A program made the translations under genes and the position numbers. A stretch of DNA of 64,000 bases from Eledone cirrhosa (lineage: Eukaryota): the NCBI GenBank assembly GCA_964016885.1, contig OZ024764.1, positions 28,954,001-29,018,000 on the forward strand. Reading direction: 5' to 3'. The stretch's first letter is position 1. The number at the start of each line of letters is the position of its first letter. The notes under the pieces are model-generated. The model did no database searches and had not been told where the DNA came from. It saw only the letters and a list, made by a program, of their open reading frames with translations. Shown here in pieces: positions 2,465-61,657 of the stretch.

Positions 2465-3022
2465 ATTATTAGTTCAAAGAGAAACCACCATCATAGAGAA
2501 ACGACCATCCTACCTGAAATATTATGTTATCATATTAAATATTTCTTATACTGTCATGTTTTTTCTTTAAAACGATTGCATTTCAATAAAGTGAAGAAAA
2601 CTATTATATACTGTTGTTATATCATTATACTTTAGTTTTAACTTATTATTTCTATGTGTATAAATATAATGTATGTAAGTGTGTTTGAAAATATATAATA
2701 ATAATATGCATGTTTGAAGCAGGGTTCAACTGAAATATCTACACCGGTAACTTAATTAGTGTTACACCTTAGGCATAAACTATTTGGCATTCTTTGAAGG
2801 AGGTACTAGGTTTTTCACTGTCTTAAATGGAGTATACACGCGCACACAATGCATATATATAAATTGTTTTTCTCTGTACAAAGAGATTGACATCATTTCT
2901 TAAATCATTATTTAGGGTTTTACAACAAAACATATTGTATGTGTAATTATACAAATTGAATTTAAGTATTTATTTTAAAATTTTACATACTCTTTAGTAG
3001 TATATATATATATATTCATTTG

Positions 3023-3770
3023 TGATGCCATGCATTGTATTGTACACTTCGACATATGAATTACATTCATGCAACACTTCTCTTATCATAGCCATTTTTT
3101 GTGGTGAGCAGTCATTATTTGTTGGTACTAGGGCAGTGGATTGGCAGTATCGGTAGAGCGCCAGACACCATGCTTTACAGCATAGGGTTATGTCCCTTTA
3201 CGTTCTGGGTTCAAATCCCTCCAAGGTTGACTTTGTTTTCATCCTTATTAGGTCGATAGAATAAAGTACCAGTAATTGCTGGCCTTGTGCTAGAAACAAT
3301 TATTTGGACGTACTTCCAATCTGTGCTACATACCTTCGTTCCCATCAATAATATATAACTGGCCATATTGTGGTGTATTTTCTGCAGGTTACAGAGATGG
3401 GGGTGTAGTGATATGTTTGACCCTGAATATGAAAGCTATACGGGCCTCTGCCGGGTGGTAACACCAAATGAAGTGAAATAAATGTAGTTTTAATTGCAGA
3501 TGTTTCTGTGAAATCAACTGCTTCCTGGCCTCTTTCAAAGAGATTTCTCAGTCTCTCAGGGTATATTTGCAATGGTGGCAACACAACCTTTCCTTTATTA
3601 CAACAGTTACAATTTTCATTTCTAAATTTCAAAGCTCCACAGTGATCACACGAAACATTCATATCACTAATATGAAATTCTTCTACATTTCCATTAATAT
3701 TAATTGTTGGCCAATTTCTCTTACAACGCTCATTATCCATTCTTCTCTGTCTGAATGTTTTCCATTCTGT
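3023..3770 (-). pseudogene. Helitron RepHel N-terminal fragment (Cys-rich region), interrupted by a SINE
   Basis: CDHCGALKF..ENCNCCNKGKVVLPP and PPGRGPYSFHIQGQTYH match Helitron N-terminal motifs. Confidence 0.85.
3130..3298 (+). mobile_element. Full-length tRNA-derived SINE inserted antisense in the Helitron coding region
   Basis: A box TGGCAGTATCGG, B box GGTTCAAATCC; flanked by imperfect 16-bp duplication ATTATTTG..GTACT. Confidence 0.85.
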
Positions 3771-4991: not shown

Positions 4992-5700
4992 TGTTACAAC
5001 TCAATATATATATATTTGGGTTGTAACATATTCCCGCCGGTGAAATAAAAATTTTAATAGAAAACGGCGGGAATATATGTTAAAACCCAATCTATATATA
5101 TTTGAGTTGTAACATATATTCCCGCCGTTGAAATAAAAATTTGAATAGAAAAACGGCGGGAATATATGTTACAATCCAATGTACATATATTTGGGTTGTA
5201 ACATATATTCCCGCCGTTGAAATAAAAATTTTAATAGAAAAACGGCGGGAATATATGTTACAACGCAATCTATATATATTTGGGTTGTAACATATATTCC
5301 CGCCGTCGAAATAAAAATTTTAATAGAAAAACGGCGGGAATATATGTTACAACCCAATCTACATATATTTGGGTTGTAACATATATTCCCGCCGTTGAAA
5401 TAAAAATTTTAACATAAAAACGGCGGGAATATATATTACAACCCAAACATATATAGGTTGGGTTGTAACATATATTCCCGCCGTTTTTCTATTAAAATTT
5501 TTATTTCAACGGCGGGAATATATGTTACAACTCAAAAATATATAGATTGGGTTGTAACATATATTCCCGCCGTTTTTCTATTAAAATATTTATTTCAACG
5601 GCGGGAATATATGTTACAACCCAAAAATATGTAGGTTGGGTTGTAACATATATTCCCGCCGTTTTTCTATTAAAATTTTTATTTCACCGGCGGGAATATA
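4992..5700. repeat. Tandem array of 89-bp hairpin (palindromic) units, 8 units
   Basis: 28-bp stem TTGGGTTGTAACATATATTCCCGCCGTT / AACGGCGGGAATATATGTTACAACCCAA around an AT-rich loop; starts at 5102, 5191, 5280, 5369. Confidence 0.95.
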
Positions 5701-5723
5701 TATCCTGAGAGACTGAGAAATCT

Positions 5724-5975
5724 CTTTCAAAGAGATTTCTCAGTCTCTCAGGGTATATTTGCAATGGTGGCAACATAACCTTTCCTTTATTACAACAGTT
5801 ACAATTTTCATTTCTAAATTTCAAAGTTCCACAGTGATCACACGAAATATTCATATCACTAATATGAAATTCTTCTACATTTCCATTAATATTAATTGTT
5901 GGCAATTTCTCTTACGACGCTCATTATCCATTCTTCTCTGTCTGAATGTTTTCCAGTCTAAGTCTATTTGCATGG
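5724..5975 (-). pseudogene. Duplicated Helitron N-terminal fragment
   Basis: CDHCGTLKF..CCNKGKVMLPP; near-identical to 3532-3770. Confidence 0.8.
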
Positions 5976-6133: not shown

Positions 6134-6681
6134 ATATACATAAACAAGACTGTTATTGCTCCAACCAGTCTATTTACCTTTGATAACTATCCTAAATATA
6201 AATACACCTATACCATACATACACATATTATATATGTTTTTGATGCCGTGGTATAGCAGAGATAAGCAAGAAGAGAAAAGAAAATGAAAATGAGAAAAAA
6301 AAAGAAGTAAGAAGTTGGGGGAGGGACAGACACTTCACCCCAGTCTAAGTGGTCCCTCAGCCGCAACCTGTGGAAGAAACGTAAAAGCGTTACCTCGGAG
6401 CAAGGCCAGAGACACCTGCTACAATAGTCGCCCCTCCTCATGAGGCTCCTGTTGTCTTTCCTCCCGACTTTATGGAGGAAATCAGCAGTACAGGGACCAA
6501 GTATGGCAGAGGTCTCAATGGAGTGGAAGAGGTGAGTCAGGCCTTGGTACTATCTTACTATCCTTTGCATTGCGGGGTGTGGAGCCTAGGTTTGTGGCTG
6601 TAGCTATATTTGAACTTTTATATGAAATTTCAGTTTTATATTTTTCACATCTTAAAACTTAATCTTAGTCTTTTGCAGCTC

Positions 6682-7046: not shown

Positions 7047-7294
7047 TCAGTCAGATTTGAACTCACTATATTTGGCGTTTTATAGATATAATTTGTTTGT
7101 TAAAACAATTGATTAAATAATAACTAAATAAAATTAATTCTACAATCCTGGATAGGGAATGAACTTATAACTTCATAATAGAAGCCATCTATTCGAGCAG
7201 TATTGCCATCTAAGCCACCAGGTTACTTACAGAACTTCATTCAAATATAAAATATAAAATATATGCCAGACATAGTGAGTTGGAATCTGACTGA
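7047..7294. mobile_element. MITE with 30-bp TIRs (paralogue of 4437-4684)
   Basis: Same TIR pair. Confidence 0.7.
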
Positions 7295-8348
7295 TTAGTT
7301 GGTCATTGTCCCAGCCAACAGTTTAAATCGCCAACCAGTAGGTGACATCGACTAGGTTGGGAAAACTTGGTTAAGTAGCTCCAGTTATTGCTACGTTAGA
7401 CATATTCAAGACTTATCGACACCGAATGGAAGAAAGGTAAAGTTGAACTCAGAGTAAAGAACTGGAAAAATACTGCAAAGAATTCTATCTGATGTTCTAA
7501 CAATTCTACCAAATTACCTTATGTATATATATTTATATCTAGAGATAAGAAGAAAACTGAAAGAAAGAAAAATGAGACCTTATATGTAACCCATGACCAG
7601 GATTGAAACCGAAACCATGACTACCACCATCTCTGGTGTCACCCACCAGACCACCATGAAAGATACAAACATCTGCTTTTTTAATATTTATAAGCCTACT
7701 TTCAATATTAAAGTAATTAACATGTGGTGTTGTTCATGCCTTTCTCTATGTTATTGGTAAAAAATAAAGTATTTAAACCTCAAATTTTGTTATTCAAATA
7801 TGCTTGCTTATGTAATTATAAATGTCGCAGAATACACACACATATATAGATGTGAAAATATTCAGGACCCCAACGGCTGTGCTACTGCCGTTTCGACATC
7901 TATATATATATCTTTTAGTCCTAGGCTCTTTCAGCGCAGAAAGAATTCTCCAATGATCACAACCAGCTAATGGTGCCCAGTGGAAGCACTTTAGTCGAAT
8001 TATAACCCCAACGATCACGATTAGCGGCGGCTTTTTCGAGTCTGAGGTTGACTGCCAGATATATATATATATATCTATATATATATATTTTTTTTTATAC
8101 TTTGCTAGAATCCCGGAGAACAACAGAAAGATGCTGAGTTCAGAGTTTAAAAAACATGTCCCCCTTTAATATAAAAACAATCCGAGTCTTGTAAAAGTGT
8201 TATTACTGTAATATAAAGTAGAAACCCTTTATTTAAACAAAGCTGAGATGCAGCGATCATCAAAGCAAACCCCAAAATGTAAACAAACTTCTCGCAGGTG
8301 CTGCCAGATACACGATAACATGTGTATACGAAGTGTAACAGGGAGTTG

Positions 8349-11845: not shown

Positions 11846-11939
11846 AGGCAGGCGAAAGGGGTGGACAAACGAGCTGCTACTAGAGCAAAAGATAACAGTA
11901 TCGCGAGGAGCACTGGGAAACCTCTCTAATGATTTTTTA

Positions 11940-12140
11940 GGCAAGCCAGCACGTCTGCAGCGTTACCTCGGGCGATGGCGAGGCTGAGGAGCTGGAACAA
12001 CCAAGTGCCCTCACGAGCTTCACCAGTCACCTTCGTCAGGCTAGCCGCCAGTGAAGATAGGAATCTCGCAGTCAGTATCCCGACTCCCCCAAACGCCACA
12101 GGCTGGAAAATGTAGTTAGCCGACAGATCACAGTATTACT
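11940..12140 (-). pseudogene. Second CRE-like non-LTR retrotransposon C-terminal fragment
   Basis: KYCDLSANYIFQPVAF..TGEAREGTWLFQLLSLAIARGNAADVL (cf. QRLSxAIQRGNAA); paralogue ~27125-27320. Confidence 0.7.
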
Positions 12141-12288
12141 TAACAGTGATAGATATTCTGTCTAAAGGAGGGGCGTGCAACAGGCGGCCCGCGGGCCACA
12201 ATCGAGCCCACCTGACCAGTCAGAGTGGCCCGCAATGACTGTTGTAGGCTTATTTAGAATTTTTTCCATACCCGTAATACTTCTGTTA

Positions 12289-12600
12289 GTTGACCTATAC
12301 TAAAGGACTTCACTGATAGGGTTATATGTGTTATAATTTCCCAGTTGACCTATACTAAAGGACTTCACTGATAGGGTTATATGTGTTATAGTTTCCCAGT
12401 TGACCTATACTAAAGGGCTTCACTGATAGAGTTATATGTGTTATAGTTTCCCAGAGGGCTTCACTGATAGGGTTATATGTGTTATAGTTTCCCAGTTGAC
12501 CTATACTAAAGGACTTCACTGATAGGGTTATATGTGTTATCGTTTCCCAGTTGACCTATACTAAAGGGCTTCACTGATAGAGTTATATGTGTTATAGTTT
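12289..12600 (+). repeat. 55-bp minisatellite (GTTGACCTATACTAAAGGACTTCACTGATAGGGTTATATGTGTTATAGTTTCCCA), ~6 units
   Basis: GTTGACC at 12289 and 12344. Confidence 0.95.
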
Positions 12601-12840
12601 GAAACAAACTACCTGCATCAGTTATTATACTTTTATAACACCGCTATATTACCTACATGAAAGAGGTAAATATTTATTTCTCTTGTCTTCTTAAATGTAT
12701 AGAACATTTTTCTTATATATATTCTTAACATAGCTAGGACCGTTTATTATTTACTAGTCTCTACTCCTAGGACTTTGCTGGTCTCATGTCCCCTCCATCA
12801 ACACACACTCGGTAGAAAGCTGGTCGTCGGAGGTAAAGTG

Positions 12841-13177
12841 GCCCTGATTACAGGTCTAGTATTGAAGCCTTTCGGCTTGAGCCTTGCTGATGCCGACAGA
12901 GTTCCTGTGGTAGTTTTGGTAGCACAGGTGACATTTTATTGTGTTTAGGTACCGGCTAGTGCGGACACAGAGCACAACCAGGTGGTGAGCTGGCAACGAC
13001 CAAGTGTAGAGGGCCAGCTTTGAAATTCGAGCGACGGAGTGAACTAGTAAAAGAGGCAGGGTAAGCAGCATTGGTTCTAACGGTGGGACTAGAACGGAGG
13101 TTGGGTGGTGCTGGGGGTGGGCTAACAGCTAACAGTTGTAGGAGTGGTGGGGGTTTGCTAGGATTAATTTTTACATC
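12841..13177 (-). pseudogene. Pro-rich linker plus degenerate PHD zinc finger downstream of Helitron Pif1 domain
   Basis: CALC..IKCHLCYQNYHRNSVGISKAQAERLQY*TCNQG; 2-nt frameshift in this copy. Confidence 0.65.
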
Positions 13178-14769
13178 TGTCTGTGAACTCTTGAAAAAGC
13201 AACATACAATTGTCCAGGGTTAAATACTTGCTCAGGGAGGAACAGACCCACTTTATCATGTATTTGACCATGGTTCTTGTTGATTGTCATGGCATATGAC
13301 AGTCTTAATGGAAACTGGGGTCTTTCCAAAGTAAAAGGGATGTTGGCACCACTGGGGGATAACTTCAGTCTTGGGATCAAAACACACCTGCCCATCAAAG
13401 GACCATAGATATGAGAAGCTTTGATAAAATGTTTATGCAGTTCTACTACTTCTAATCTTGTGCCATTACATAATCTGTTCTGGATTGAAATATTCCATAG
13501 AAGCATTATTATTGATCCTGCTTATAATTGGAGTTTGTGAGGCGGCATCCCAGAAGGTGTAAGCAAGTTCATTTAGCTTGAACCAGGCAGCAAGGGTCCC
13601 TGCATTTCTACCACAACCTGAGCATTGCCTCTTTGAAAGTAAACTCTGTTTGTTCTCCAGGTGTGTGGCTAGGCTGTATACTGTATGTGATGTACCATGA
13701 AGCTTAAATTCCGAGAGACACGACACTGCTTCTGGCTGAGACACATACCTGCAACAAAGATAGGTTCTTATTTCATCATGGTTGTGTTGGTTCTGAGCCT
13801 CATTAGGTAATGCATTATTCGTTACTTCTATAGATGTACAATCATGCCCCATGTAACATATTTAAAGAGGTACTTGACACTTTTTACAGAAGCGCAAACT
13901 TCAACATTAATATGTGCACAATATTTCTTAAGCAAAAAGGCATTAAATGGCATAACATTCCTGTTATCTACTGAATGTCATCCAATTTACACTGCAGTTC
14001 CTGTCTTGCACCTCCTGTACTCTGGGTATCCATTTAGGTTCAATAATGTTTCCCTTCTGTAGGTTTTTGGATAGTTCTTTTTGAAAAATCCATTTTGTAT
14101 AAATGGGGGAAAAGGGTTTCCAGAACCACATGGCCTGTGGATCATAAACTTTTAAACCTGCTCATGTAGTACTGGATCATCTTCCAATGCAGGTATTTCT
14201 GCTGACACGATTCTGTCAATGTCTTCTCTGTTTCTTATCTTGTCTTCATTTTTTAAGGCTCAGTGTTATCATCTGTTTAGATAATTCATTAAACCATTAT
14301 ACTCATCCACTCACAATTGGGCTTGATTGTTCCTCAAATATTGAAGCCTGCATCCCTCTACTTTCATATAGGCATCCACTAAATACTGCTAAAATAATTT
14401 ACCTGCCCTATATATCGCACTAAATCCTCCTCTATATGCTATACAGTATATGTAATACTCCTGCATTGTCAGTCTATTGCAAACACAGGTCCTACATTCC
14501 TCTCCATGGCACTATGCCACCAAAATTCACCATTATCGGTCGGTCATGAGGTCCAAGTGGCATGCATTATGTGGTATTTTCTGAGGAGGATGGTCTTTAG
14601 GAAAGATGATAATATCTCTTTGTACAGGTGGTGTGCCCTCAATCCCCCACAAAACAACAGCTATCATTACTAGTTGGTAAATTAGAGCAGCTCATATCTG
14701 ATCCTCTTCTAAATCTTAATTCACAGTTCTGTACACGACAATTTTCTCTTCTTGCACTTTGCTGTTTGA
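13171..14769 (-). pseudogene. Helitron RepHel pseudogene (Rep remnants plus Pif1 helicase C-terminus), copy A, 3' part
   Basis: LCNGTRL, QFPLRLSYAMTINK, GQLYVAFSRV (Pif1); VKYLFKY, DEIRTYL..RYVSQPEA, QYLVDAYMKVE (Rep region); stops and frameshifts. Confidence 0.92.
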
Positions 14770-14787
14770 GATGAAACAAGATAGCAA

Positions 14788-15130
14788 TGTCCATAACATT
14801 ACATGTCAGAATTATTAGCCACAGGGGCAGAGATGTCCATAACATTACATGTCAGAATTATTAGCCACCGGGGCAGAGATGTCCATAACATTACATGTCA
14901 GAATTATTAGCCACAGGGGCAGAGATGTCCATAACATTACATGACAGAATTATTAGCCACAGGGGCAGAGATGACCATAACATTACATGACAGATTTATT
15001 AGCCACAGGTGCAGACATGACCATAACATTACATGACAGAATTATTAACCACAGGGGCAGAGATGACCATAACATTACATGACAATTATTAGCCCCAGGG
15101 GCAGATATGTCCATAACATTACATGACAGA
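14788..15130 (+). repeat. 46-bp minisatellite array interrupting Helitron copy A
   Basis: About 7 units; Helitron sequence GTTTGA|TGCC is continuous at 30051-30060 but split here. Confidence 0.95.
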
Positions 15131-16813: not shown

Positions 16814-17349
16814 ATTATTAGTTCAAAGAGAAACCACCATCCTACCTGAAATATTATGTTATCATATTAAATATTTCTTATACTGTCATGTTTTTTCTTT
16901 AAAACGATTGCATCTCAATAAAGTGAAGAAAACTATTATATACTGTTGTTATATCATTATACTTTAGTTTTAACATTTCTATGTGTATAAATATAATGTA
17001 TGTAAGTGTGTTTGAAAATATATAATAATAATATGCATGTTTGAAGCAGGGTTCAACTGAAATATCTATACCAGTAACTTAATTAGTGTTACACCTTAGG
17101 CATAAACTATTTGGCATTCTTTGAAGGAGGTACTAGGTTTTTCGCTGTCTTAAATGGAGTATACACGCGCACACGATGCATATATATAAATTGTTTTTCT
17201 CTGTACAAAGAGATTGACATCATTTCTTAAATCATTATTTAGGGTTTTACAACAAAACATATTGTATGTGTAATTATACAAATTGAATTTAAGTATTTAT
17301 TTTAAAATTTTACATACACTTTAGTAGTATATATATATATATTCATTTG

Positions 17350-18109
17350 TGATGCCATGCATTGTATTGTACACTTCGACATATGGATTATATTCATGCA
17401 ACACCTCTCTTATCATAGCCATTTTTTGTGGTGAGCAGTCATTATTTGTTGGGACTAGGGCAGTGGATTGGCAGTATCGGTAGAGCGTCAGACACCATGC
17501 TTTGCAGCATAGGGTTATGGCCCTTTACGTTCTGGGTTCAAATCCCTCTAAGGTTGACTTTGTTTTCATCCTTATGAGGTCGATAGAATAAAGTATCAGT
17601 AATTGCTGGCCTTGTGCCAGAAACAATTATTTGGTTGTACTTCCAATCTGTGCTACACACCTTCGTTCCCATCAATAATATATAACTGGCCATATTGTGG
17701 TGTATTTTCTGCAGGTTACAGAGATGGGTGTGTATTGATATGTTTGACCCTGAATATGAAATCTATACGGGCCTCTGCCGGGTGGTAACACCAAATGAAG
17801 TGAAATAAATGTAGTTTTAATTGCAGATGTTTCTGTGAAATCAACTGCTTCCTGGCCTCTTTCAAAGAGATTTCTCAGTCTCTCAGGGTATATTTGCAAT
17901 GGTGGCAACACTACCTTTCCTTTATTACAACAGTTACAATTTTCATTTCTAAATTTCAAAGCTCCACAGTGATCACACGAAACATTCATATCACTAATAT
18001 GAAATTCTTCTACATTTCCATTAATATTAATTGTTGGCCAATTTCTCTTACGACGCTCATTATCCATTCTTCTCTGTCTGAATGTTTTCCATTCTAAGTC
18101 TATTTGCAT
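17350..18109 (-). pseudogene. Helitron RepHel N-terminal part of copy A (SINE at 17457-17625)
   Basis: CDHCGALKF..CCNKGKVVLPP..PPGRGPYRFHIQGQTY. Confidence 0.88.
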
Positions 18110-20535: not shown

Positions 20536-20788
20536 CTCTTTCAAAGAGATTTCTCAGTCTCTCAGTGTATATTTGCAATGGTGGCAACACAACCTTTCCT
20601 TTATTACAACAGTTACAATTTTCATTTCTAAATTTCAAAGCTCCACAGTGATCACACGAAACATTCATATCACTAATATGAAATCCTTCTACATTTCCAT
20701 TAATATTAATTGTTGGCCAATTTCTCTTACGACGCTCATTATCCATTCTTCTCTGTCTGAATGTTTTCCAGTCTAAGTCTATTTGCAT
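20536..20788 (-). pseudogene. Duplicated Helitron N-terminal fragment
   Basis: ORF 20498..20788 CDHCGALKF..CCNKGKV. Confidence 0.8.
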
Positions 20789-25440: not shown

Positions 25441-27410
25441 GGCGTTGGGCTACTCCGATGCGAGTTCAATCATCATCAAGAATTTATTTGAATTGAAAGG
25501 TCACTAAACTAATATAGGAGTGTCATTTAAAAATAAGGTAAACAGAAATAGTTACACCGGTAACATAATTACTGTTACACCGGTAGTTCACTAACAATTC
25601 ATTTCACGTTCCTCTCTAACAGGTAATGTTTTAATTTGCTCTCCATGTTGGGGAGTAACTGTAGTTTGGCTTGCTAGGGGGTCATACATCTTCATACACA
25701 CATACTATATATATATATACAAAGGAAAGGAAGATAAACAAATATCAGAGGATTTGACCGGCTTCTTCCTCTTGGCACCTGTAGCCACCATGACGTATAA
25801 GTATAAATACATATCTATCTATCTATATATATATCATCATTTTCATTTTACGTCTGCTTTTCCCTGTTTGCAAGGGTGGGGCATATATATATATATCATC
25901 ATCATTATACATCCACTTTTCCCCGCTTGGCAGCACCTACGAGAAGTTTGTTTTGATCATCGCTGCATCGTAGCTTTGTTTAAATAAAGGGTTTCTACTT
26001 TATATTACAGTAATAATACTTTCAGAATACTCGGATTGTTTTTATATTAAAGGGGAACATAAACATATTTTAGAGGAGGGGTGTGGAACAGAAAAGTTTG
26101 GCGACCACTGATACACACACACATTTATTTACTATATATATAATATATACATATATATGTCTGTGTGTGTATACTATATATATATATATATGTACAGGGA
26201 GGTCGAAGCATTTCAGAATTTTTCTAGGCGGCGGGGGGGGGGTGCAAATCCCCCTCTTTATATCAATTAGCACACACTCTCTCCCTCTCTATATCTACTA
26301 CACGGCACTCTCTTCCAATACCCCTCTCTATATGAAGTAACACCAAACTCTCCCCCTCTCTATATATTAAGCACTAAGTCAGGAATTTTTTTCTTCTTTC
26401 GTGCAGAGAGAGTAAAGTTGATTAAATCTACTGCAGTGAATTACTGGTATTTTATTTAATAAAAATTAAAATTTACTACTTGTCTTCGTTTAATTTTCGT
26501 TTTTCTTTACATAGTTTCGTTTCGTTAAATGTCTCCAGAATTTGTTTTTACTTTTACCGGATATTGAAGGTGTAAACTTGGTGTTGTCTAGAAACGTGTT
26601 AGAAATATTTTTCTTTTAATTGTGAAGAATTTAACCGCAAATTAAGTTTTTTTTACTGTTTATTTGTGGCTGGGACAACGTATGGTATGTGTTAATGTAA
26701 ATGGTGAAGGTTTAAAGATTCTTTTTACAACTGAAAATCAGTTTGTTGTTTCTGCTAATTACTTAACGCATGGAATAGATTAAAAAAATACAGGATTGTT
26801 TCTCGGAAGAGAGAAAGAAGGAACAAAACAAATCACAGAAGCGGGTAGCACACACATTTGGGACCACATACAACACAAAAACAGGTAATGCACACATCTG
26901 GGACCACATACAACACACCAGCAGGTAATACATATATCTAGGACCACATAAGCAGGTAATACACACATCTAGGACCACATACAACACACAAGCAGGTAAT
27001 ACACACATCTAGGACGACATACAACCAAAGGCAGGCGAAAGGGGTGGACAAACGAGCTGCTACTAGAGCAAAAGATAACAGTATCGCGAGGAGCACTGGG
27101 AAACCTCTCTAATGATTTTTTAGGCAAGCCAGCACGTCTGCAGCGTTACCTCGGGTGATGGCGAGGCTGAGGAGCTGGAACAACCAAGTGCCCTCACGAG
27201 CTTCACCAGTCACCTTCGTCAGGCTAGCCGCCAGTGAAGATAGGAATCTCGCAGTCAGTATCCCGACGCCCCCAAACGCCTCAGGCTGGAAAATGTAGTT
27301 GGCCGACAGATCACAGTATTACTTAACTGTGATAGATATTCTGTCTAAAGGAGGGGCGTGCAACAGGCGGCCCGCGGGCCACAATCGAGCCCACCTTAAT
27401 ACTTCTGTTA

Positions 27411-27887: not shown

Positions 27888-28127
27888 GAAACAAACTACC
27901 TGCATCAGTTATTATACTTTTATAACACCGCTATATTACCTACATGAAAGAGGTAAATATTTATTTCTCTTGTCTTCTTAAATGTATAGAACATTTTTCT
28001 TATATATATTCTTAACATAGCTAGGACCGTTTATTATTTACTAGTCTCTACTCCTAGGACTTTGCTGGTCTCATGTCCCCTCCATCAACACACACTCGGT
28101 AGAAAGCTGGTCGTCGGAGGTAAAGTG

Positions 28128-28265
28128 GCCCTGATTACAGGTCTAGTATTGAAGCCTTTCGGCTTGAGCCTTGCTGATGCCGACAGAGTTCCTGTGGTAG
28201 TTTTGGTAGCACAGGTGACATTTTATTGTGTTTAGGTACCGGCTAGTGCGGACACAGAGAGCACA
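28128..28265 (-). pseudogene. Degenerate PHD finger, in a single frame in this copy
   Basis: 46 codons CALC-X11-CHLC-X4-H-X2-S(TCT)-X13-*(TAG)-T-C-X2-G(GGC): C4HC3 spacing with three single-base losses. Confidence 0.72.
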
Positions 28266-28458
28266 ACCAGGTGGTGAGCTGGCAACGACCAAGTGTAGAG
28301 GGCCAGCTTTGAAATTCGAGCGACGGAGTGAACTAGTAAAAGAGGCAGGGTAAGCAGCATTGGTTCTAACGGTGGGACTAGAACGGAGGTTGGGTGGTGC
28401 TGGGGTGGGCTAACAGCTAACAGTTGTAGGAGTGGTGGGGGTTTGCTAGGATTAATTT

Positions 28459-30813
28459 TTACATCTGTCTGTGAACTCTTGAAAAAGCAACATACAATTG
28501 TCCAGGGTTAAATACTTGCTCAGGGAGGAACAGACCCACTTTATCATGTATTTGACCATGGTTCTTGTTGATTGTCATGGCATATGACAGTCTTAATGGA
28601 AACTGGGGTCTTTCCAAAGTAAAAGGGATGTTGGCACCACTGGGGGATAACTTCAGTCTTGGGATCAAAACACACCTGCCCATCAAAGGACCATAGATAT
28701 GAGAAGCTTTGATAAAATGTTTATGCAGTTCTACTACTTCTAATCTTGTGCCATTACATAATCTGTTCTGGATTGAAATATTCCATAGAAGCATTATTAT
28801 TGATCCTGCTTATAATTGGAGTTTGTGAGGCGGCATCCCAGAAGGTGTAAGCAAGTTCATTTAGCTTGAACCAGGCAGCAAGGGTCCCTGCATTTCTACC
28901 ACAACCTGAGCATTGCCTCTTTGAAAGTAAACTCTGTTTGTTCTCCAGGTGTGTGACTAGGCTGTATACTGTATGTGATGTACCATGAAGCTTAAATTCC
29001 GAGAGACACGACACTGCTTCTGGCTGAGACACATACCTGCAACAAAGATAGGTTCTTATTTCATCATGGTTGTGTTGGTTCTGAGCCTCATTAGGTAATG
29101 CATTATTCGTTACTTCTATAGATGTACAATCATGCCCCATGTAACATATTTAAAGAGGTACTTGACACTTTTTACAGAAGCGCAAACTTCAACATTAATA
29201 TGTGCACAATATTTCTTAATCAAAAAGGCATTAAATGGCACAACATTCCTGTTATCTACTGAATGTCATCCAATTTACACTGCAGTTCCTGTCTTGCACC
29301 TCCTGTACTCTGGGTATCCATTTAGGTTCAATAATGTTTCCCTTCTGTAGGTTTTTGGATAGTTCTTTTGGAAAAATCCATTTTGTATAAATGGGGGAAA
29401 AGGGTTTCCAGAACCACATGGCCTGTGGATCATAAACTTTTAAACCTGCTCATGTAGTACTGGATCATCTTCCAATGCAGGTATTTCTGCTGACACGATT
29501 CTGTCAATGTCTTCTCTGTTTCTTATCTTGTCTTCATTTTTTAAGGCTCAGTGTTATCATCTGTTTAGATAATTCATTAAACCATTATACTCATCCACTC
29601 ACAATTGGGCTTGATTGTTCCTCAAATATAGAAGCCTGCATCCCTCTACTTTCATATAGGCATCCACTAAATACTGCTAAAATAATTTACCTGCCCTATA
29701 TATCACACTAAATCCTCCTCTATATGCTATACTGTATATGTAATACTCCTGCATTGTCAGTCTATTGCAAACACAGGTCCTGCATTCCTCTCCATGTCAC
29801 TATGCCACCAAAATTCACCATTATGGGTCAGTCATGAGGTCCAAGTGGCATGAATTATGTGATATTTTCTGAGGAGGATGGTCTTTAGGAAAGATGATAA
29901 TATCTCTTTGTACAGGTGGTCTGCCCTCAAACCCCACAAAACAACAGCTATCATTACTAGTTGGTAAATTATAGCAGCTCATATCTGATCCTCTTCTAAA
30001 TCTTAATTCACAGTTCTGTACACGACAATTTTCTCTTCTTGCACTTTGCTGTTTGATGCCATGCATTGTATTGTACACTTCGACATATGGATAACATTCA
30101 TGCAACACCTCTCTTATCATAGCCATTTTTTGTGGTGAGCAGTCATTATTTGTTGGTACTAGGGCGGTGGATTGGCAGTATCGGTAGAGCGTCAGACACC
30201 ATGCTTTGCAGCATAGGGTTATGGCCCTTTACGTTCTGGGTTCAAATCCCTCCAAGGTTGACTTTGTTTTCATCCTTATGAGGTCGATAGAATAAAGTAC
30301 CAGTAATTGCTGGCCTTGTGCCAGAAACAATTATTTGGTCGTACTTCCAATCTGTGCTACACACTTTCATTCCCATCAATAATATATAACTGGCCATATT
30401 GTGGTGTATTTTCTGCAGGTTACAGAGATGGGGGTGTATTGATATGTTTGACCCTGAATATGAAAGCTATACGGGCCTCTGCCGGGTGGTAACACCAAAT
30501 GAAGTGAAATAAATGTAGTTTTAATTGCAGATGTTTCTGTGAAATCAACTGCTTCCTGGCCTCTTTCAAAGAGATTTCTCAGTCTCTCGGGGTATATTTG
30601 CAATGGAGGCAACACAACCTTTCCTTTATTACAACAGTTACAATTTTCATTTCTAAATTTCAAAGCTTCACAGTGATCACACGAAACATTCATATCACTA
30701 ATATGAAATTCTTCTAGATTTCCATTAATATTAATTGTTGGCCAATTTCTCTTATGACGCTCATTATCCATTCTTCTCTGTCTGAATGTTTTCCATTCTA
30801 AATCTATTTGCAT
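28459..30813 (-). pseudogene. Helitron RepHel pseudogene copy B (not interrupted by satellite; SINE at 30161-30329)
   Basis: N-terminal Cys motif, YNLPTSND..RDIII, Rep motif 3 and Pif1 C-terminal motifs in order. Confidence 0.93.
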
Positions 30814-30917
30814 GGAATAATTATATTCTGTTGTTTATTATGTAATTAAATAGCTCTGTACAATACATAGAGCATTCTTCTTTTCTTTACCTTTTCTATA
30901 GAAATACAAGAACAAAC

Positions 30918-30949
<32 letters not shown>

Positions 30950-37050: not shown

Positions 37051-37788
37051 TTAAAAGGAAAATCGCGTTTAAAATAAGCTTTATAAAGATAAACCAAATT
37101 TTATGTGACTCCATTTTGTTTGTTATTGTTTCTTTTACTGTTTTACTTATTTCTTATTTCTTATTAAATTACACTTAATTAATTCCATTAAATATTTATT
37201 CTTGCTCATATTAAATTACTGTATATTTATTCATGTCATTGTTGCAACTTTCATTTCTACATCTTTCATTTATACCGACTGTTACACCGGTCGTATAATT
37301 ACTTTTATAACACCGCTATATTACCTACATGAAAGAGGTAAATATTTATTTCTCTTGTCTTCTTAACATAGCTAGGACCGTTTATTATTTACTAGTCTCT
37401 ACTCCTAGGATTTTGCTGGTCTCATGTCCCTTCCATCAACACACAATCGGTAGAAAGCTGGTCGTCGGAGGTAAAGTGGCCCTGATTACAGGTCTAGTAT
37501 TGAAGCCTTTCGGCTTGAGCCTTGCTGATGCCGACAGAGTTCCTGTGGTAGTTTTGGTAGCACAGGTGACATTTTATTGTGTTTAGGTACCGGCTAGTGC
37601 GGACACAGAGAGCACGACCAAGTGTAGAGGGCCAGCTTTGAAATTCGAGCGAAGGAGTGAACTAGTAAAAGAGGCAGGGTAAGCAGCATTGGTTCTAACG
37701 GTGGGACTAGAATGGAGGTTGGGTGGTGCTGGGGGTGGTCTAACAGCTAACAGTTGTAGGAGTGGTGGGGGTTTGCTAGGATTAATTT

Positions 37789-60913: not shown

Positions 60914-61657
60914 TGATGCCATGCATTGTATTGTACACTTCGACATATGAATTACGTTCATGCAACACTTCTCTTATCATAGCCATTTTTTATGGTGAGC
61001 AGTCATTATTTGTTGGTACTAGGGCAGTGGATTGGCAGTATCGGTAGAGCGCCAGACACCATGCTTTACAGCATAGGGTTATGGCCATTTACGTTCTGGG
61101 TTCAAATCCCTCCAAGGTTGACTTTGTTTTCATCCTTATGAGGTCGATAGAATAAAGTACCAGTAATTGCTGGCCTTGTGCCAGAAACAATTATTTGGTT
61201 GTACTTCCAATCTGTGCTACACACCTTCGTTCCCATCAATAATATATAACTGGTCATATTGTGGTGTATTTTCTGCAGGTTACAGAGATGGGGGTGTAGT
61301 GATATGTTTGACCCTGAATATGAAAGCTATACGGGCCTCTGCCGGGTGGTAACACCAAATGAAGTGAAATAAATGTAGTTTTAATTGCAGATGTTTCTGT
61401 GAAATCAACTGCTTCCTGGCCTCTTTCAAAGAGATTTCTCAGTCTCTCAGGGTATATTTGCAATGGTGGCAACACAACCTTTCCTTTATTACAACAGTTA
61501 CAATTTTCATTTCTAAATTTCAAAGCTCCACAGTGATCACACGAAACATTCATATCACTAATATGAAATTCTTCTACATTTCCATTAATATTAATTGTTG
61601 GCCAATTTCTCTTACAACGCTCATTATCCATTCTTCTCTGTCTGAATGTTTTCCATT
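60914..61657 (-). pseudogene. Helitron N-terminal fragment of U4 (SINE at 61021-61189)
   Basis: ORF 61254..61631 near-identical to 3345..3740. Confidence 0.85.

What the first reader, a model, noticed from the sequence alone, without database searches (positions are those of the whole stretch)
12786..13200. Hidden PHD finger reconstructable in frame with the Helitron Pif1 helicase C-terminus
Seen: the Pif1 ORF ends YVAFSRVHRQM*. Shifting frame by one base at that point gives DVKI, which resembles the usual Helitron SRVRxxxDVKV continuation. In copy A that frame stays open through NPSKPPPLLQLLAVSPPPAPPNLRSS...SSPPG-CALC. Copy B (28128-28265) reads CALC-VRTSRYLNTIK-CHLC-YQNY-H-RN-S-VGISKAQAERLQY-*-T-C-NQ-G. 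Established: this is C4HC3 PHD spacing. The missing Cys, Trp and Cys are TCT, TAG and GGC, each one base from TGT, TGG and TGC. The majority consensus of the three copies (5-G run from A and C, extra AG from B and C) is open from DVKI to the TAG. Inference: either an ancestral RepHel-linker-PHD fusion, i.e. a chromatin-reading Helitron and an architecture I do not recognise as standard, or a captured exon or retroelement N-terminus.
Basis: partly seen in the sequence, partly recalled or inferred. Interest (0 to 1): 0.75.

Follow-up and report, generated by a model that had tools for sequence, protein, structure and literature searches.

The report
Dead Helitron-LINE chimera in tandem array
The PHD finger is real, but it is the broken front end of a retrotransposon protein that a small deletion likely joined to an already dead Helitron, so this is ordinary transposon debris copied over a hundred times, not a chromatin-reading transposase.

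Summary
The sequence observation holds: three minus-strand copies carry a Helitron Pif1 tail, a linker and a decayed C4HC3 PHD (Pfam PHD E=0.004, below cut-off). The ancestral-fusion idea fails. (1) All 11 dispersed PHD relatives fetched from this genome (about 78% nucleotide identity) are the N-terminus of a single-ORF, RLE-type (CRE-like) LINE. (2) The parent Helitron family ends in an ordinary 25-residue tail with no PHD. (3) One locus of the same lineage (L194, 97-98% identical) keeps the unfused state: normal tail, 3' UTR, Helitron end CTAG|T, then the LINE start and the same PHD. The fused copies lack the 1,180 bp between two AATTA(A) microhomologies. (4) The 4-nt loss that takes Pif1 out of frame and the stop at the PHD tryptophan are both present in L194, so they likely predate the join. 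The stop is in 31 of 31 haplotypes scored; only 2 of 31 are open from Pif1 to that stop, via later 2-nt losses. At least 138 copies lie in tandem arrays. Verdict: dead chimera, low interest.

The parts
13568..14769 (-). Copy A: decayed Helitron N-terminal/Rep remnant (aa 341-512 and 633-867 of the intact relative P0004), many stops; helicase core aa 868-1366 is missing
   Evidence: tblastn of P0004; 14 stops counted over the six aligned, partly overlapping pieces
13174..13572 (-). Copy A: Helitron Pif1 C-terminal part (2B domain to the last motif), 77% identical to P0004 aa 1367-1498
   Evidence: Pfam PF21530 E=7.6e-07
13177..13185 (-). Site of the 4-nt loss that puts DVKI out of frame with Pif1 (29 nt from YVAF to D against 33 in the parent family); also present in unfused L194
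13164..13169 (-). Helitron/LINE junction, microhomology AATTAA; 1,180 bp present in L194 are absent here
12808..13169 (-). Copy A: 5' ORF fragment of an RLE-type (CRE-like) LINE: Pro/Thr-rich leader, PHD and a few further codons, with a 30-nt internal loss
12841..12976 (-). Copy A: decayed C4HC3 PHD; TCT 12900-12898, TAG 12858-12856, GGC 12843-12841; 2-nt loss after the second Cys
12600..12807 (-). Shared downstream tail, matching neither the parent Helitron tail nor the LINE; origin not found
11856..12137 (-). 3' end of the same LINE family (end of the RLE domain and 3' flank), 79% identical to donor L089, same strand as the PHD piece; repeated at 27039-27320
28095..28457 (-). Copy B of the LINE fragment (PHD 28128-28265); Helitron remnant 28452-30934
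37446..37787 (-). Copy C of the LINE fragment, with a 22-nt loss removing the first PHD Cys; Helitron remnant from 37782 to about 40060
12288..12600 (.). 55-bp tandem repeat between the tail and the LINE 3' piece
14787..15130 (.). 46-bp tandem repeat at the point where the copy-A Helitron remnant breaks off (about aa 341)

Best explanation
This is a non-coding chimera of a decayed Helitron and the 5' end of an RLE-type (CRE-like) LINE, likely joined by a microhomology-mediated deletion and then likely spread by tandem and segmental duplication. Steps: (a) shown: one Helitron copy ended normally at CTAG|T about 10 bases before the start of a LINE ORF whose N-terminus is the PHD (locus L194). 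(b) Inferred from shared states: the Helitron had already lost 4 nt in its Pif1 tail and the PHD already had a stop at its tryptophan. (c) Inferred: a deletion between AATTA in the Helitron codons K-I-K and AATTAA in the LINE leader removed the true Helitron tail, 3' UTR, terminal palindrome and the LINE start (1,180 bp in L194; about 570 bp without a nested insertion). (d) Shown: at least 138 near-identical copies now lie mostly in clusters on a few contigs and share kilobases of flank. In the donor LINE the PHD would act as a chromatin or nucleic-acid reader for retrotransposition (recalled, untested); here it would do nothing.
For: Donor: 11 of 11 dispersed PHD relatives continue into the LINE ORF; against the intact PHD-RT-RLE protein P0030, 10 of 11 cover the RLE region; RVT_1 E=3.5e-14 in L097; 0 of 11 have the Helitron tail next to the PHD, and 1 of 11 has an unrelated 38% Pif1 piece about 3.4 kb upstream on the other strand. 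8 of 119 database relatives of the RT carry PF00628 and none lists PIF1. Parent Helitron: P0003 and P0004 (77-78% identity) end about 25 residues after DVKV; 0 of 27 Pif1-tail relatives list a PHD; of 15 family loci with the tail in this genome, 14 continue into the ordinary tail and 1 breaks off before it. Intermediate: L194 (G000:C25:28005000-28014999) has the tail at 97.5% to the window, its normal stop at 6301-6303, a terminus like that of five dispersed parents at 7236-7240, LINE sequence from 7250 and the same PHD at 97%. Trees put L194 and all array copies in one clade, 100/100, for both pieces. Frame: 29 nt in L194 and in 28 of 31 haplotypes, 33 nt in 8 of 8 parents printed; TAG in 31 of 31 and in L194.
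Against: Only one unfused copy was found (40 of 298 candidates scored), and its place inside the clade is unresolved; it carries the TCT of the young C25 copies while 10 of 31 haplotypes keep TGT, so sequence exchange between array copies could have carried the TAG or the 4-nt loss into it. 3 of 31 haplotypes have DVKI back in the Pif1 frame and 2 of these (L083, L072) are open to the TAG. 18 of 31 haplotypes keep the linker open from DVKI to the TAG, more than one in three, but the haplotypes are close kin and not independent. Which element arrived first is not settled: no LINE 5' UTR was found in the window or in 32 array loci. How the array spread is inferred from shared flanks only.
Confidence: 0.92

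Rival explanations
1. An active Helitron once encoded RepHel-linker-PHD in one frame and the copies are its decayed offspring.
For: The join puts the LINE leader in the DVKI frame in older haplotypes such as L085; L083 and L072 are open from the Pif1 2B domain to the TAG; PHD fingers are accessory domains of other mobile elements (PMC9940879, passages seen).
Against: The out-of-frame 29-nt state is shared with unfused L194; the in-frame 27-nt states need a further 2-nt loss, at two different places; TAG in 31 of 31 haplotypes; L072's PHD is scrambled by two more indels; pN/pS of the PHD against the donor majority is 0.47-0.61 in 7 array-lineage copies, no lower than the pooled dead donor copies (34 and 19 changes, about 0.48); parent Helitrons have ordinary tails.
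Confidence: 0.02
2. The junction arose as described, but the unit spread as a large non-autonomous Helitron: loss of the 3' terminator would allow read-through and rolling-circle concatemers that built the arrays.
For: The deletion removes the terminal palindrome and CTAG; in Helraiser, loss of the hairpin raises read-through into flanking DNA (PMC4778049, passages seen); copies lie on at least nine contigs, some in 8-9 kb head-to-tail runs.
Against: No 5' TC end or new CTRR|T end was located; copies share flanks beyond the parent-homologous part, break at varied points and are mixed with microsatellite blocks, as expected from unequal exchange.
Confidence: 0.1
3. The PHD is a captured exon of a host gene.
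For: Helitrons capture gene fragments (PMC11417382, section 22 read).
Against: The only non-array relatives among the 150 scored matches are LINE copies, and nucleotide similarity to them covers leader and PHD without a break.
Confidence: 0.01

Closest known systems
R2-group (RLE-type) non-LTR retrotransposons, CRE-like, with an N-terminal PHD
   Same: The donor has one ORF with PHD, RT (YLDD), a CCHC knuckle and a C-terminal PD..D nuclease, like intact P0030, P0031 and P0034; PMC3636483 (passages) defines the R2 group, which includes CRE, by a single ORF with RT followed by a PD-(D/E)XK-like nuclease.
   Different: The window holds only about 360 bp of the 5' ORF and about 280 bp of the 3' end, both decayed. 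The clade name CRE is recalled from motifs and was not tested against named references.
Helitron (HLE1-type RepHel), family of P0004
   Same: Helitron_like_N, Rep, PIF1 and 2B domains in the relative; ends in a palindrome plus CTAG|T in L194 and dispersed parents, as for Helraiser (PMC4778049).
   Different: Window copies lack the helicase core, the last 25 codons and the 3' terminus, and hold many stops.
Helitrons with stably captured domains (RPA, OTU, EN and others; HELIANO survey PMC11417382)
   Same: An extra domain lies downstream of RepHel in most copies of a repeated unit.
   Different: Here the domain is dead in every copy scored and the copies are duplicates of one locus. PHD is not named in section 22 of that survey; its Supplementary Table S11 with the full list of 20 domains was not opened.

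Membership tests
PHD finger (PF00628) | C4HC3 ligand spacing with Trp before the last Cys pair | tested here: met
   Met in the donor LINE copies (28.5 and 29 bits, cut-off 24; alignment).
PHD finger (PF00628) | All eight ligands in one open frame in the window copies | tested here: not met
   TAG in 31 of 31 haplotypes; TCT in 21 of 31; last Cys codon kept in 1 of 31; 17.6 bits.
Autonomous Helitron with fused domain | Open RepHel ORF continuous with the extra domain | tested here: not met
   Helicase core absent, many stops; Pif1 out of frame with the linker in 28 of 31 haplotypes.
Helitron | Rep and Pif1 homology | tested here: met
   54-77% identity to P0004; PF21530.
Helitron | 3' palindrome plus CTRR before a T | tested here: met
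   Met in unfused L194 and dispersed parents (the palindrome is decayed and folds weakly, -2.3 kcal/mol in L194). Deleted in the window copies.
Helitron | 5' TC terminus after an A | tested here: inconclusive
   Alignment upstream of 30934 did not locate the 5' end.
R2-group (RLE) LINE, donor | Single ORF with RT followed by CCHC and PD..D nuclease | tested here: met
   10 of 11 donor loci cover the RLE region of P0030.
CRE clade | RT phylogeny with named CRE elements | not tested
   No named reference sequences were at hand; label recalled from motifs.
CRE clade | Target-site duplication and target preference | not tested
   Donor ends were not mapped.

The most novel reading that the evidence does not exclude
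Deletion of the Helitron terminator made a giant non-autonomous Helitron whose read-through rolling-circle copying built these multi-kilobase arrays on several chromosomes, carrying a LINE PHD exon that in rare copies (L083, L072) has slipped back into frame with Pif1: a snapshot of how a RepHel-PHD fusion could arise.
Probability: 0.08. Interest if true: 0.4.

Novelty: already known. Interest (0 to 1): 0.1.

Why it matters
A Helitron with its own histone-reading domain would have suggested chromatin-guided rolling-circle insertion. The evidence shows no such protein. What remains is a clean teaching case: the unfused precursor survives in the same array, so a false domain fusion, backed by over a hundred copies, can be traced to one deletion. 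High copy number in a tandem array is not independent support for a captured domain.

Tried and rejected
Database search with the decayed PHD alone: 14 candidates, none at E<=0.01; weak evidence. DNA and protein searches of the genome with the Pif1 tail or the downstream tail returned only array copies. A PF05970 search (150 of 4852 candidates scored, 50 fetched) gave other Helitron families; the 34 tails that the motif search could read were all short ordinary tails. The parent family was reached only through the helicase core of P0004. My first idea, that the LINE piece was inserted into an intact Pif1 tail that resumes after 12808, was rejected: the downstream tail does not match the parent. 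pN/pS is uninformative on 57 codons because dead donor copies give the same ratio. Sequencing runs: no RNA holder listed; no reads were laid. Literature: 'Helitron'+'PHD finger' gave 16 papers, none on such a fusion by title or abstract start; three searches for CRE with PHD gave 0, 1 and 2 papers and one for plant homeodomain with CRE/NeSL gave 22, none describing it in what I saw; PMC13580325 passages held nothing on PHD domains; Kapitonov and Jurka 2003 on PHD in CR1-like LINEs was seen only as a reference title and is not held. Earlier scan notes near this place: none. No structure or complex prediction was run, as no protein is predicted.

Full report
Observation. The window holds three minus-strand copies of the region (A 12.6-14.8 kb, B 27.9-30.1 kb, C 37.3-39.4 kb), 92-98% identical. 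Read with X at the stop, it hits Pfam PHD alone, E=0.004, 17.6 bits against a cut-off of 24. The PHD is real and decayed.

Copy number is not independent evidence. The genome is about 3.0 Gb; the host was not identified. A protein search with the PHD scored 150 of 543 candidates: 139 belong to the window's lineage and 11 are dispersed relatives at 70-77% amino-acid identity, 10 of them without a stop. The 139 lie on contigs C25, C20, C18, C23, C24, C27 and C1; further copies turned up on C26, C23 and C644. They share kilobases of flank with the window. All carry a stop in the match.

Where the PHD comes from. I fetched all 11 dispersed relatives. Their similarity to the window (74-82% nucleotide) starts at about 13160 and covers linker and PHD only; none matches the Pif1 tail. 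Downstream they continue into an RT with YLDD, a CCHC knuckle and a PD..D nuclease. Against the intact 971-aa relative P0030, 11 of 11 cover the PHD and 10 of 11 the nuclease; L094 is interrupted by another element. Pfam gives PHD above cut-off for the two donor N-termini tested and RVT_1 for L097. Of 119 database relatives of that RT, 8 list PF00628 and none lists PIF1; three are single ORFs of 961-980 aa with PHD first. A single ORF with RT followed by a PD-(D/E)XK-like nuclease defines the R2 group, which includes CRE (PMC3636483, passages). I call the donor CRE-like from recalled motifs; the clade was not tested. A 3' piece of the same family lies at 12137-11856 on the same strand, 79% identical; it may be the other end of the same old copy.

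What the Helitron normally looks like. The nearest database proteins, P0003 and P0004 (77-78%), end about 25 residues after DVKV with an ordinary tail; none of 27 relatives lists a PHD. Using the helicase core of P0004, which the window copies lack, I reached the parent family in this genome (24 of the 30 loci examined). Fifteen had the Pif1 tail: 14 run on into the ordinary tail and one breaks off before it. The parent spacing from YVAF to D is 33 nt in 8 of 8 printed; the window has 29.

The precursor survives. One of those 15 (L179, refetched as L194, G000:C25:28005000-28014999) lies inside the C25 array, about 0.94 Mb from the window. Its Pif1 tail is 97.5% identical to the window's and it still has the helicase core. 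After the tail come the normal stop (6301-6303), a 3' UTR 80-91% identical to a dispersed parent and interrupted by an insertion of about 610 bp between two 12-bp direct repeats, a decayed palindrome (7213-7230) and CTAG followed by T (7236-7240). Five dispersed parents end the same way with unrelated flanks, and a sixth has CTAT; this is the Helitron terminus described for Helraiser (PMC4778049, passages). Ten bases on, LINE sequence begins near the donor's likely start codon (89% identity) and runs in register into the same linker, PHD and downstream tail as the window (97%). The window sequence is L194 less the 1,180 bp between AATTA at 6216 and AATTAA at 7396; the parent family has AATTAA at the first place. 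A search with the terminus-LINE join found L194 only, among 40 of 298 candidates scored. Trees of the Pif1 tail (39 rows) and of the LINE piece (34 rows) put L194 and all array copies in one clade with 100/100 support; its place inside the clade is open.

Was the join ever coding? Of 33 distinct fused haplotypes among the fetched loci, 31 could be scored (L062/L010 and L200 did not match the anchor patterns). TAG: 31 of 31, and L194. Pif1 out of frame with DVKI: 28 of 31, and L194. The three in-frame haplotypes have 27 nt, a further 2-nt loss, at two different places; two of them (L083, L072) are open from the 2B domain to the TAG, and in L072 two more indels scramble the PHD. Going from 27 to 29 would need an insertion that restores parent-like bases, so 29 is the likely ancestral state. 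The linker is open in 18 of 31, but the 145-aa frame of the commonest haplotype is not the Pif1 frame. Substitution ratios in the PHD do not differ from those of dead donor copies. The caveat is that L194 is one locus and array copies exchange sequence, so the order 'dead first, joined later' is inferred, not shown.

Mechanism. A Helitron and an RLE-type LINE came to lie head to tail; which came first is open, as no LINE 5' UTR was found in the window or 32 array loci. Both decayed. A deletion between 5-6-nt microhomologies joined them. The unit was then amplified with its flanks, most likely by tandem and segmental duplication (0.92 for the whole account). Helitron read-through after loss of the terminator is a possible engine of the spread (0.1), since hairpin loss raises read-through in Helraiser, but no new termini were found. 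A true ancestral RepHel-PHD protein gets 0.02.

Comparison with what is known. PHD fingers are accessory domains of other mobile elements (PMC9940879, passages). The HELIANO survey lists 20 stably captured Helitron domains and names no PHD in the section read; it also filters out domains due to chance TE insertions (PMC11417382, passages and section 22; the supplementary table was not opened). A search for Helitron with PHD finger gave 16 papers, none on such a fusion by title or abstract start. Helitron-linked satellites in molluscs appear in a search listing only. A functional RepHel-PHD would thus be new, but this locus is not one.

Verdict. Observation confirmed; headline interpretation refuted; fallback source correct. 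Ordinary transposon debris. Interest 0.10.

Noticed in passing
window 1-64000; G000 C25:26.43-29.09 Mb, C20:26.8-27.2 Mb, C18:34.9-35.8 Mb, C23:15.2-15.3 and 17.4-17.6 Mb: The window is part of a multi-megabase array of large repeated units (about 8-9 kb in C23, about 15 and 39 kb spacings elsewhere) mixed with long CT-rich 24-bp arrays; the C25 array changes strand between about 28.01 and 28.64 Mb, and the unfused precursor L194 lies at the edge of that switch.
   Followed up: partly
window 3015-3752, 5669-5971, 17342-18079, 20540-20758, 61187-61643 (-): Five more fragments of the same Helitron's N-terminal region (aa about 150-340 of P0004), cut off from their 3' parts.
   Followed up: partly
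L072 1-570 (G000:C1:212.61 Mb): The LINE fragment plus downstream tail is duplicated head to tail, starting right at the Helitron/LINE junction at a TAAT overlap; a roughly 1.7-kb insertion with inverted ends interrupts the first tail.
   Followed up: no
L194 6402-7022: An insertion of about 610 bp with a 12-bp target duplication in the Helitron 3' UTR; looks like a short retroposon.
   Followed up: no
window about 37265-37295 (-): A short imperfect palindrome in the copy-C tail, followed 11 bases later by GTAG; could be a remnant end of another element or a substitute terminator.
   Followed up: no
G000 C2:12050878, C3:194699583, C28:41097728, C2:86753881, C7:72652341: Other Helitron families have open frames of 1430-1598 aa, so young and possibly active Helitrons exist in this genome.
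   Followed up: no
P0044, P0045, P0047, P0053, P0061, P0065, P0069: Relatives of the donor LINE RT list a ubiquitin C-terminal hydrolase domain (PF00443) in 7 of 119 hits, one with a PHD as well; either gene-model fusions or a LINE subgroup with a deubiquitinase.
   Followed up: no
L088 4476-5066: An intronless 197-aa ORF beside a donor LINE that resembles a mitochondrial ribosomal protein by recall, perhaps a retrocopy or single-exon gene.
   Followed up: no
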